A program made the translations under genes and the position numbers. Shown piece by piece: positions 7,391 to 56,910 of a stretch of DNA of 64,000 nt; position 1 is the first letter of the stretch, and every line of letters begins with the position of its first letter. Source of the stretch: Octopus vulgaris (taxonomy: Eukaryota); NCBI GenBank assembly GCA_951406725.2, contig OX597816.1, positions 163,742,001 to 163,806,000 of the forward strand, given 5' to 3'. The notes below the pieces were generated by a model. It had not been told where the DNA came from. It saw nothing but the letters and a program-made list of their open reading frames with translations, and ran no database searches.

Positions 7391-7546
7391 ATATATAATT
7401 TTTTTTCCGTAATGAGATAACTAAAAATAACCAAGGCTGTGTAGATTTTAGAACTTTTATATTATAAATGTTGTATTTCTAAATGTTCTAAGATCTACAC
7501 AGCCTTGGTTTTTTTTTTTATCTCATTACGGAAAAAAAATTATATA
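7391..7546. repeat. Fold-back inverted repeat (~62 bp arms) in TA context
   Basis: TTCCGTAATGAGATAA..CCAAGGCTGTGTAGAT mirrored by ATCTACACAGCCTTGG..TTATCTCATTACGGAA. Confidence 0.85.
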
Positions 7547-8590: not shown

Positions 8591-8758
8591 ATAGGCGTAG
8601 GAATGGTTGTGTTGTAAGTAGGTTGCTTACCAGCCACATGGTTCCAGGTTCAGTCCCACTACGTGGCATCTTGGCCAAGTGTCTTCTACTATATCCTCGG
8701 GTCGACTAAAGCATTGTGAGAGGATTTGGTAGACGGAAACTGAAAGAAGCCCGCCGTC

Positions 8759-8816
<58 letters not shown>

Positions 8817-8819
<3 letters not shown>

Positions 8820-8962
8820 CTCTGTGTATCTTTCTGTTGAAGAGCGTAGGCTCGAAACGTTAAAGACTTGTTTTATTTATATTTCCTGAGCGCCATACTA
8901 ATACAATTGTTTGTTTGTATTCCACCTGCCTTCGTCTTTTGTCTATTTTCATAAAGCTTCCC
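8817..8962 (+). mobile_element. HHR mini-element family A (5'-truncated)
   Basis: Homologous to 17868-18057, 41612-41806 and 56294-56484; flanked by (TA)n. Confidence 0.8.
8829..8866 (+). ncRNA. Minimal type-I hammerhead ribozyme (A6U core)
   Basis: TCTTT-CTGTTGA-A-GAGC-GTAG-GCTC-GAAACGTT-AAAGA: stem I, stem II, palindromic stem III. Confidence 0.7.
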
Positions 8963-8963
8963 G

Positions 8964-10824: not shown

Positions 10825-10926
10825 GGAGTAAACACATAAACGTGAAACAAGGTGGAAAAAAGAGTACTCAAATACCAGTGGTAGAGTAATATGCTTTATT
10901 TTAAGCAGCAGAAAATTCAACAAAAT

Positions 10927-10963
10927 CTGTTACTCTGAGTTTCTCGTTGCCGTTCATCAGACA
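10927..10963 (-). ncRNA. Minimal hammerhead ribozyme, canonical core
   Basis: TGT-CTGATGA-A-CG-GCAA-CG-A-GAAA-CTCAGAG-TA-ACA. Confidence 0.65.
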
Positions 10964-10966
10964 AAA

Positions 10967-11004
10967 CTGTCTGATGAATGGCAACGAGAAACTCAGAGTA
11001 ACAG
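10967..11004 (+). ncRNA. Minimal hammerhead ribozyme, canonical core
   Basis: CTGT-CTGATGA-ATGGCAACGA-GAAA-CTCAGAG-TA-ACAG. Confidence 0.7.
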
Positions 11005-11057
11005 ATTTTGTTGAATTTTCTGCTGTTTAAAATAAAGTATATATATATATATATATG

Positions 11058-14768: not shown

Positions 14769-14956
14769 TACATATGTCTGTGTGTATATGTATACATATA
14801 TGTATGTATATATATCGACGTATGCGTGTATGTATCATGTATGTAGGTATGCATGTATGTGTGTGTGTATATATATGGTCAGTGCATCATATGTCAAAAA
14901 TAAGCATCATACTTTAAAGTGTACAGCAGTTATGTATCATTTTCAGTTAAAGCTAC

Positions 14957-15132
14957 GTCCGGTCTTAGAGTGACCAATAGTTTCGCATCCACAAAGGGCT
15001 TAGCCCTGGGGTCATCTCGTCAGACTCTAAAGCCAGACTCCTCAGACTCTAAACGTCATTAGAGTATGACGGGACGTCCATGGCGCTAAGCCCTTTGTGA
15101 ACGCGAAACCACTAGTCACTCTATGACCGGAC
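14957..15132. mobile_element. MITE-like fold-back element (~75 bp imperfect TIRs)
   Basis: GTCCGGTC.TAGAGTGAC..CACAAAGGGCTTAG mirrored by CTAAGCCCTTTGTG..GTCACTCTA.GACCGGAC. Confidence 0.7.
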
Positions 15133-17867: not shown

Positions 17868-17870
<3 letters not shown>

Positions 17871-18057
17871 AGAGTTTACGAAAAAAACAAAAGACGAAGA
17901 CAGGTGGTGTACAAAACAAACAGATGTATTAGTATAATGCTCAGGAACAGAAAACGTCTTTTACGTTTCGAGCCTACGCTCTTCTACAGAAAAGGACACA
18001 ATGAGAGAAACAAGGAGAGAAAAAAATTTAAGTAGTGGCTAACGATCTATCATGGCG
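17868..18057 (-). mobile_element. HHR mini-element family A, full length (~190 bp); hammerhead at 17958-17994
   Basis: CTTTT-CTGTAGA-AGAGCGTAGGCTC-GAAACGTA-AAAG on the minus strand; (TA)n on both sides. Confidence 0.8.
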
Positions 18058-27836: not shown

Positions 27837-28353
27837 GTATAAATGCCTTTGTGCATTTATGTATGCATATATTCATCCTTTAGACTAGTAAAACTGACTA
27901 CTGACAGCACGAGCGTTTCTCAGATTGACACAGATGAGTTTATAACTGGCCTTTACTCCAAAATACACTTATCCACTGTGGATAAACACGTGTACTGAGT
28001 ACTTAGAAGAGATATCATCTTCTTTGTGCGCAGTACTTATTGTATTCCATATACAAGTATGCATGCGTGCTTGTATGTAATTATGCATGCGTTTATGACT
28101 TCATGTATATACGTATGTTCGAATATATTTTTTGCATGCATGAGGATATGAATTATAAACTTATGTACTCACAAATGTATATACAACGCACATATATATA
28201 TAAATATATATGCATACATACAAGCGTATACGTATATAAATATACTTCGGCTCGAAACGTCAAAGGCGTCTCCATTCTTCTGCAGCGTAAAGCTAATACA
28301 TTTGCTTGTTTTCCCTTCACCTGGCTTTGTCTTCTTTTCTTTACTTTTGCACC

Positions 28354-41611: not shown

Positions 41612-41806
41612 CGCCATAATAGATCGCTAGCCACTACACATTCTTTATTTTCTCTCCTTGTTTCTTTCTGTGTTCATTTCTGTGGAAGAGCGTAGGCTCG
41701 AAACGTTCAAGACTTTTTCACTTCCCGAGCGTTATACTAATACATCTGTTTGTTGTCTACACCACCTGTCTTCGTCTTTTGTTTTTTTTTTTGTGAATTC
41801 TCCCCC
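41612..41806 (+). mobile_element. HHR mini-element family A, full length; hammerhead at 41677-41712
   Basis: CTGTGGA-AGAGCGTAGGCTC-GAAACGTTC; same termini as the other copies. Confidence 0.8.
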
Positions 41807-56291: not shown

Positions 56292-56651
56292 AAGGGAAAG
56301 TTTACGAAAATAAACAAAAGACGAAGGCAGGTGGTGTACAAACAAACAAATGTATTAGTATAGCGCTCAGGAATAGAAAAGGGCTTTTACGTTTCGAGCC
56401 TACGCTCTTCCACAGAAAGATACACAGAAAAAAAAACAAGGAGAGAAAAAAAGTGCATGTAGTAGCTAACGATCTATCATGGTGATATGTCGGGCTTCTT
56501 TCAGTTTCCGTCTACGAAATCCAATCTTAAGGCTTTGGTCGGCCCGAGGCTATAGTAGAACACAACTCGCCCAAGGCGCCACGCAGTGGGACTGAACTCG
56601 GAACCATGTGGTTGGTAAGCAAGCTACTTACCACACAGTCACTCCTGCGCC
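55975..56651 (-). mobile_element. SINE family 2 copy with a nested family A element
   Basis: Homology; insert at 56294-56484. Confidence 0.85.
56294..56484 (-). mobile_element. HHR mini-element family A, full length; hammerhead at 56384-56420
   Basis: CTTT-CTGTGGA-AGAGCGTAGGCTC-GAAACGTA-AAAG. Confidence 0.8.
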
Positions 56652-56910
56652 TCCTGCATGTATATTTACATATATAATAAGCACGCACATGCACACAAAC
56701 GTGCATATACTTTGGATATTAGGTTAGATTATAAACAATTATATGCGTAAACCTTTATTCATTAGTTCTGTTATTGTACATATTACAGACAAATATATGA
56801 ATATGTATGTATATCAATTAATTTTATTTATCACAATTACATTCTAATTATTATGCATTATTTGTGTTTTGAAACTCGCAAAGCTCCCTCTCTCTATCTC
56901 TCTCTCTATT

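What the first reader, a model, noticed from the sequence alone, without database searches (positions are those of the whole stretch)
17868..18057. Family A: fixed-ended ~190 bp element with a shared A6U hammerhead core
Three copies (17868-18057, 41612-41806, 56294-56484) share both termini, and a fourth is 5'-truncated. All four keep stem II GAGC-GTAG-GCTC and GAAACGT identical while the flanks diverge. All read CUG-U-N-GA (N = U, A, G, G), so the normally invariant A6 is U while the free position 7 varies. This is the pattern expected of a constrained natural core variant rather than random decay.
Basis: partly seen in the sequence, partly recalled or inferred. Interest (0 to 1): 0.72.

Follow-up and report, generated by a model that had tools for sequence, protein, structure and literature searches.

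The report
Penelope hammerhead with fixed U6 core
These short repeats are broken-off tail ends of a recently active Penelope-type jumping gene, whose whole family carries a hammerhead-shaped RNA motif with one normally fixed core letter changed (A to U) while the rest of the motif has stayed unchanged, so it is likely a slowed-down self-cutting RNA, though cutting is untested.

Summary
Observation confirmed, interpretation partly. The four motifs read as stated. The ~190-bp units are not a free-standing element: they are 5'-truncated 3' ends (pLTR stubs) of a Neptune-type Penelope-like retrotransposon. It has intact copies (RT + CxxxxCxxC linker + GIY-YIG; 15 of 15 checked, 99.4-100% identical). 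The 3' end is fixed; the 5' end is only a truncation hot spot. U6 is the family state: 17,610 exact genomic matches have U, 226 have A, 497 have C/G. It is in both pLTRs of intact copies and in every subfamily. Among six subfamily consensuses only positions 7 and 17 vary in the 36-nt motif (2 of 36, against 63 of 142 flank columns), so the source elements kept the motif under selection. The stubs themselves decay. The nearest outside relatives have A6, so U6 is derived. Published A6C and core-mutant data predict slow cleavage, and U6 allows a competing helix. Cleavage was not tested, and that U6 itself is selected is not shown. No natural A6U hammerhead was found in seven literature searches. 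This scan has noted A6U Penelope hammerheads before, in this genome and in other genomes (unchecked notes). New variant of a known kind.

The parts
17868..18057 (-). pLTR stub (5'-truncated 3' end of the Penelope-like element), N7=A/H17=A subfamily, between (TA)n tracts
   Evidence: 5.8% from its subfamily consensus
17958..17993 (-). Minimal type I hammerhead motif: C3 at 17989, U6 at 17986, H17 (A) at 17962, 4-bp stem I (one G.U)
41612..41806 (+). pLTR stub, N7=G/H17=U subfamily; longer members of this subfamily continue into the RT/EN frame
41676..41711 (+). Hammerhead motif: C3 41680, U6 41683, H17 (U) 41707; stem I broken by two changes private to this copy
56294..56484 (-). pLTR stub, intermediate subfamily; its 5' end abuts a SINE-like repeat
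56384..56419 (-). Hammerhead motif: C3 56415, U6 56412, H17 (A) 56388
8819..8963 (+). Shorter pLTR stub, 97.9% identical to the 3' end of the young intact element; motif C3 8834, U6 8837, H17 (U) 8861
28249..28342 (+). Fifth copy, truncated inside loop 2 (core CUGUNGA absent); H17=C and 3' sequence of the oldest subfamily

Best explanation
The repeats are 5'-truncated 3' ends of a recently active Neptune-type Penelope-like retrotransposon, and the hammerhead motif they carry has U at position 6 throughout the family and is likely a slowed ribozyme that would cut only when helped by the element's protein or a second copy. Shown: parent element, U6 in intact copies, motif unchanged between subfamilies except at the two free positions, A6 in relatives. 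Inferred: the endonuclease nicks (TA)n; reverse transcription starts at an internal TA-rich site about 105 nt past the predicted cut, which gives the fixed 3' end; it usually stops early, often ~70-80 nt before the motif; the stubs are dead. Inferred: in source transcripts stem III forms only between two motifs through the ACGU palindrome, and U6 both removes A6 contacts and lets U4-G5-U6 pair with A15.1-C15.2-G16.2, holding the monomer shut, so most RNA stays uncut and usable as template.
For: Parent: RVT_1 E=1.4e-7, GIY-YIG weak (E=0.006, under cutoff); DKG, YIDD, CX4CXXC and GIY-YIG-type motifs read in the ORF; 15 of 15 copies chosen for long frames have a 1064-1102-aa ORF through the EN, 12 of them with two pLTRs ~4.5 kb apart, and 14 compared are 99.4-100% identical; 1,515 exact 80-nt copies, 100 of 100 listed U6. 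Constraint: 2 of 36 motif columns vary among six subfamily consensuses (N7, H17) vs 63 of 142 flank columns, Fisher p=4e-6; flank tree ~1.08 changes/site, 0 changes in 34 columns; between two subfamilies 33 of 116 fourfold sites differ but 1 of 36 motif sites (p=9e-5). N7 takes all four bases and consensus H17 is C, A or U, never G. Stem I covaries with relatives (2 of 4 pairs changed on both sides). Slowing: A6C cut the Mg2+ rate strongly but stayed active in Mn2+ (PMC7151607); CUGA mutants low (PMC9901934); competing helix predicted at 0.98, 0.33, 0.81 in three natural U6 copies vs 0 in matched A6 copies. A Penelope hammerhead was shown to cut only with its protein (PMC11167929).
Against: No cleavage assay. 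Stem I is only 4-5 bp and A-U rich, with no visible compensation for U6. Copies starting at the predicted cut are not clearly enriched: about 4 of 42 loci at the cut, 5 at +1, similar to other TA junctions (read by eye, confounded by microhomology). In the anole element, catalytic mutants inserted normally in vitro and no RNA-seq ends mapped at the cut, so cleavage may not be what is selected. Loop 2 and 4 nt beyond stem I are also invariant, which catalysis alone does not explain. Folding predicts off-pathway helices for A6 relatives too, so the U6 helix is not special proof. The covariation set is 8 related sequences, two lineages in effect. The Fisher test treats columns as independent, and consensuses rest on 11-42 copies found with a model that includes the motif.
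Confidence: 0.55

Rival explanations
1. The motif no longer cuts. It is kept as a hammerhead-shaped or rod-shaped RNA structure that the element's protein binds, for packaging or for positioning reverse transcription; U6 switched catalysis off at no cost.
For: Insertion did not need cleavage in vitro for the anole element; Naiads multiply without a canonical hammerhead; U6 stabilises a continuous hairpin; no clear pile-up of copies at the cut; loop 2 invariant; a young chimeric repeat uses only the last ~50 nt without the motif (8 of 30 loci).
Against: The residues used in catalysis and the palindromic stem III stay fixed over ~1.08 changes/site of flank divergence, and H17 avoids G in all consensuses (3 changes, weak). 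In the predicted rod N7 would pair in some subfamilies, yet it changes freely.
Confidence: 0.3
2. U6 is a fully tolerated natural core: the ribozyme cuts about as well as A6 minimal hammerheads of other Penelope elements (all slow), and the change is a neutral fixation.
For: Minimal Penelope hammerheads are slow even with A6; a single unchanged site is expected by chance about 1 time in 3 at the flank rate; relatives tolerate U4C in 5 of 12 motifs.
Against: Position-6 changes lowered activity where measured (A6C, abasic 6); other minimal-hammerhead families in this genome keep A6 (99 of the first 100 listed).
Confidence: 0.1
3. The motif is a relic or a DNA-level signal (part of the pLTR promoter); its resemblance to a constrained ribozyme is shared ancestry.
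For: pLTRs hold the promoter in Penelope; individual copies do decay.
Against: Zero fixed changes in 34 columns against 44% variable flank columns, with variation exactly at the two positions that are free in hammerheads; compensatory stem I changes against relatives.
Confidence: 0.05

Closest known systems
Minimal type I hammerheads (min-HHR) in pLTRs of metazoan Penelope-like elements (Cervera & de la Pena 2014, PMC4209133)
   Same: U-rich 5' flank, 4-5-bp stem I, extra nucleotide after A9, G10.1-C11.1, no loop 3 with palindromic ACGU, NUH cut site, place in both pLTRs, thousands of solo truncated copies.
   Different: U at position 6. All 56 motifs of their Fig. S3 have A6, though their descriptor demanded the core.
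Acropora digitifera Neptune min-HHR (same paper, Table S1/Fig. S3)
   Same: Motifs of this sequence sit just downstream of the closest RT relatives I could fetch (56-58% aa; L286, L289, L327). Stem II differs at one paired base (G.U vs A-U), and GAAACGU is the same.
   Different: A6, loop 2 UAAC instead of GUAG, G-C-rich 3-bp stem I instead of CUUU/AAAG.
Bcep176 phage hammerhead, natural A6C (Perreault 2011 PMC3088659; Naghdi 2020 PMC7151607)
   Same: Natural pyrimidine at core position 6.
   Different: C not U; a single phage motif with measured slow Mg2+ and good Mn2+ cleavage, against a >17,000-copy minimal motif of unknown activity here.
Anolis Poseidon (PAc) hammerhead (Frangieh 2024, PMC11167929)
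   Same: Penelope pLTR hammerhead; internal start of reverse transcription downstream of the motif; AT-rich targets.
   Different: Poseidon clade; no core change is mentioned in the parts read; cleavage was shown to be protein-assisted and not needed for insertion in vitro.
Non-LTR retrozymes (bioRxiv 10.64898/2026.07.22.740005, first fifth read)
   Same: Short hammerhead-bearing units derived from Penelope pLTRs.
   Different: Retrozymes are tandem repeats with a motif in each unit; these are dispersed single stubs with ragged 5' ends.

Membership tests
EN+ Penelope-like element (parent) | Single ORF with RT and C-terminal GIY-YIG endonuclease | tested here: met
   RVT_1 above cutoff at aa 454-643; GIY-YIG at aa 874-907, E=0.006, below Pfam's cutoff; motifs read
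EN+ Penelope-like element (parent) | Partial-tandem structure giving pLTRs of variable length | tested here: met
   13 of 20 fetched loci have two 3' ends 4.37-4.58 kb apart, upstream repeat 524-1574 nt
Neptune/Nematis clades | CX2-5CxxC linker between RT and EN; microsatellite targeting | tested here: met
   CSRPRCRTC in the ORF; definition from PMC8557442; (TA)n follows 80 of 126 3' ends, other microsatellites 17
Neptune clade proper | RT phylogeny with named Neptune references | not tested
   No named references at hand. Indirect: nearest relatives carry the hammerhead of an element labelled Neptune in PMC4209133 Table S1
PLE min-HHR | Consensus core CUGANGA including A6 | tested here: not met
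   U6 in 153 of 156 unselected copies and in 17,610 of 18,333 exact genomic matches
PLE min-HHR | Extra nt after A9, G10.1-C11.1, GAAA, palindromic 15.2-16.2, NUH | tested here: met
PLE min-HHR | Short stem I closing the core | tested here: met
   4-5 bp, invariant in all consensuses; 2 of 4 pairs changed on both sides against relatives
Hammerhead ribozyme | Site-specific self-cleavage after H17 | not testable with these tools
   Only contigs were available; genomic footprint inconclusive
Non-LTR retrozyme | Tandem units each with a hammerhead | tested here: not met
   The five window copies are single, on both strands, 11-15 kb apart; no genome-wide search for tandem arrays was run
Fixed-ended non-autonomous element (SINE/MITE-like) | Defined 5' and 3' termini | tested here: not met
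   5' ends spread over hundreds to thousands of bases with a hot spot

The most novel reading that the evidence does not exclude
U6 is an evolved lock: it pairs the catalytic strand onto stem III so the ribozyme stays off in the free transcript and cuts only inside the element's own ribonucleoprotein (or with Mn2+). If the unchecked notes of A6U in Penelope families of other animals hold, A6U is a recurrent class of conditional hammerhead, invisible to CUGANGA searches, and Penelope elements are selected to keep a ribozyme that is intact but slow.
Probability: 0.25. Interest if true: 0.78.

Novelty: new variant of a known kind. Interest (0 to 1): 0.5.

Why it matters
What Penelope hammerheads are for is open: they are nearly universal in these elements, slow in vitro, and were not needed for insertion in the one biochemical study. 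Here a family with intact, nearly identical young copies has carried a change at a normally invariant core base through its whole visible history while fixing no other change in 34 motif positions. A few cleavage assays (wild type, U6A, dead mutant, with and without the element's protein) would tell whether selection is on cutting or on shape. It also shows that searches built on CUGANGA miss one of the most abundant hammerhead-like motifs of this genome. The stubs in the window are ordinary dead retrocopies.

Tried and rejected
Rfam scan of the window: no hit. Idea that an older subfamily or a sister family in this genome holds A6: rejected; oldest subfamily picked by its 3' end is U6 in 15 of 16 aligned copies (17 U and 2 A among 19 readable by eye), H17=C copies are U6 in 87 of the first 100, and a looser stem II pattern gave 0 A6 in the first 100 of 3,570. 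The 226 A6 copies fall across subfamilies, as back-mutations would (30 read). RNA evidence: no RNA holder listed on record; runs are contigs, so no start, end or cut can be seen. could not read position 6, laid on a natural A6 copy, could. Genomic footprint of cleavage: inconclusive; no positive control was run. Dimer folding did not give the hammerhead dimer as the minimum-energy state. A hairpin at the 5' hot spot was folded for two subfamilies without controls; not pursued. The idea that the hot spot is the transcription start is untested; upstream pLTRs of full copies do not start there. Literature: searches found no natural A6U hammerhead; the A6U hits were a twister paper and an aptamer paper (listing only). 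One review was not held. Per-mutant values of PMC9901934 were not in the text supplements; file 1 of the PMC4209133 supplement, its part 3, and figure images were not seen, and Repbase/Dfam entries or subscription papers may describe this family. Sequence look-up in earlier findings returned nothing.

Full report
Observation. The four complete motifs read CTGT-N-GA-A-GAGC-GTAG-GCTC-GAAA-CGT-H with N = T, A, G, G and H = T, A, T, A. The window lies on contig C3 of a 2.8-Gb genome. From memory the neighbouring SINE looks like an octopus repeat; I did not test this.

What the repeat is. Of the 30 best genomic matches to copy 41612, several continue upstream of the supposed 5' end. The longest run into a frame with reverse-transcriptase, CX4CXXC and GIY-YIG-type motifs. 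A protein search gave many copies with open frames over 1,000 codons. I fetched 20 loci, 15 chosen for the longest frames. All 15 have an uninterrupted 1064-1102-aa ORF through the endonuclease, 12 of them have two 3' ends about 4.5 kb apart, and the 14 compared are 99.4-100% identical over 1,752 nt. Pfam gives RVT_1 (E=1.4e-7) and a sub-cutoff GIY-YIG. This is the layout of Neptune/Nematis-type Penelope-like elements (PMC8557442, passages read). Window copy 8819-8963 is 97.9% identical to the young element's 3' end. The 3' end is fixed and is followed by (TA)n in 80 of 126 cases. Inside tandem copies the same point is followed by a short TA run, which fits priming on a nicked (TA)n at an internal site (inference; internal initiation was shown for an anole element). 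The 5' end is a hot spot, not a terminus: about 28 of 83 rows stop there and 14 go further (counted by eye).

U6 is the family state. With the other 23 specified bases exact, position 6 is T in 17,610 places, A in 226 and C or G in 497; reversed controls give 0. Both pLTRs of intact copies have it, and an 80-nt stretch of the youngest subfamily occurs 1,515 times exactly, with T in the 100 listed. Among 156 copies not chosen on the core (219 aligned, 63 core-selected ones dropped), 153 have T. Contigs of four runs under four organism labels show T at 97, 90, 99 and 98% of depth (organisms A-D); the labels may cover close or identical species. Other minimal-hammerhead families in the same genome keep A6 (99 of the first 100 of 9,703 matches). 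In 80 metagenome loci fetched with the ORF, a loose scan found 14 motifs: 13 have A6 and one is a poor match. Twelve match the Acropora digitifera Neptune motif printed by Cervera and de la Pena. So A6 is likely ancestral, and U6 was fixed before the oldest subfamily visible here.

Constraint. I clustered copies on columns outside the motif. Six consensuses span 12% to 2% within-group divergence. In the 36 motif columns only N7 (C, U, A, G, C, U) and H17 (C, A, A, U, A, U) vary, against 63 of 142 ungapped flank columns (Fisher p=4e-6; same result with 7 or 8 groups). The flank tree sums to about 1.08 changes per site. An independent yardstick: between the N7=G subfamily and the youngest, 33 of 116 fourfold-degenerate ORF sites differ but 1 of 36 motif sites (p=9e-5). 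Positions 7 and 17 are the free ones in the published consensus. Stem I covaries with the relatives (few lineages). Limits: columns are not independent; 30 copies were picked by whole-length likeness; copies were detected with a model that includes the motif. One unchanged site such as U6 has about a 1-in-3 chance at the flank rate, so U6 may be tolerated rather than favoured. The stubs decay: 34 of 96 unselected copies keep a perfect core, and non-CpG mismatch is 3.5% in the motif against 5.6% in the 3' flank, the latter inflated by unresolved subfamilies.

How it likely works. The architecture is the minimal Penelope type, where stem III can form only between two motifs through ACGU (PMC4209133, main text parts 1-2 of 4 read). 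Measured changes at position 6 are harmful but not always fatal: natural A6C cleaves below 0.1 per min (PMC3088659, section read) and recovers in Mn2+ (PMC7151607, results and discussion read); CUGA mutants were low in a mutational scan (PMC9901934, passages). I found no A6U rate. In three pairs of natural copies differing only at position 6, U6 lets the catalytic strand pair with A15.1-C15.2-G16.2 (U6-A15.1 probability 0.98, 0.33, 0.81 against 0). The anole element's hammerhead cut only with its protein, and cutting was not needed for insertion in vitro (PMC11167929, parts 1-2 of 4 read). I therefore favour a slowed, helper-dependent ribozyme (0.55) over a non-cutting structural element (0.30), a neutral change (0.10) or a relic (0.05). 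Against cutting: no clear excess of copies starts at the cut site (about 4 of 42 distinct loci at the cut, 5 at +1, 5-6 each at other TA junctions), no RNA ends could be seen, and a young chimeric repeat carries the last ~50 nt without the motif.

Comparison and novelty. The parent meets the structural tests for an EN+ Penelope-like element of Neptune/Nematis type; clade placement by tree was not done. The motif meets every min-HHR feature tested except A6, so it works like a min-HHR in layout but fails the consensus-core test, and cleavage is untested. All 56 motifs of the 2014 survey have A6, as their descriptor required. Seven searches found no natural A6U hammerhead; papers outside the library, repeat databases and unseen supplements may hold one. 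Earlier notes of this scan report the same family elsewhere in this genome and A6U Penelope motifs in other genomes, one described as cartilaginous-fish-like. I did not check those genomes, and the notes are not counted as support; they suggested the recurrence clause of the novel case.

Verdict. Real, family-wide and under selection at the level of the motif; the element is of a known class and the window copies are dead stubs. New variant of a known kind, interest 0.5, higher if cleavage or recurrence is shown.

Noticed in passing
L249, L257, L265, L268, L272, L274, L275, L277 (G000 C1-C3): Near-identical chimeric repeat: a SINE-like piece joined to the last ~50 nt of the oldest subfamily's 3' end, without the hammerhead, followed by (CA)n (8 of 30 loci). 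The terminal 50 nt may be enough for copying, or it moves inside something else.
   Followed up: no
L150-L178 (G000 C1): A second abundant minimal-hammerhead family with canonical A6, a longer stem II and a GACAC/GTGTT stem I, often in inverted pairs and next to (TAA)n; most of the first 100 of 9,703 matches.
   Followed up: partly
L279, L312, L321, L327 (metagenome contigs): Acropora-type Neptune hammerheads with U4C (CCGAC) in 5 of 12 motifs, a second core change in this group of elements.
   Followed up: no
window 10889-11042: 154-bp near-perfect palindrome whose arms each hold CTGATGA followed by GAAAC; may be a head-to-head end of another hammerhead-bearing element.
   Followed up: no
window 7392-7546: 155-bp palindrome (87% arm identity) between TA tracts.
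   Followed up: no
window 8593-8795 and 56485-56652: Two of the stubs sit directly at the end of a SINE-like repeat present in about ten window copies, suggesting insertion into the SINE's TA tail.
   Followed up: no
subfamily consensuses: N7 and H17 change about 4 and 3 times on the subfamily tree, against ~1 for an average flank site: either the flanks are themselves constrained or these two sites mutate faster, for example if reverse transcription crosses a re-ligated cut.
   Followed up: partly
L099:6230-6581: The intact ORF has no stop after the endonuclease and runs ~115 codons into a C/T-rich low-complexity tract of variable length.
   Followed up: no
window 14950-15023, minus strand: CTGACGA followed 40 nt later by GCGAAAC with a hairpin between; a possible further hammerhead-like motif.
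   Followed up: no
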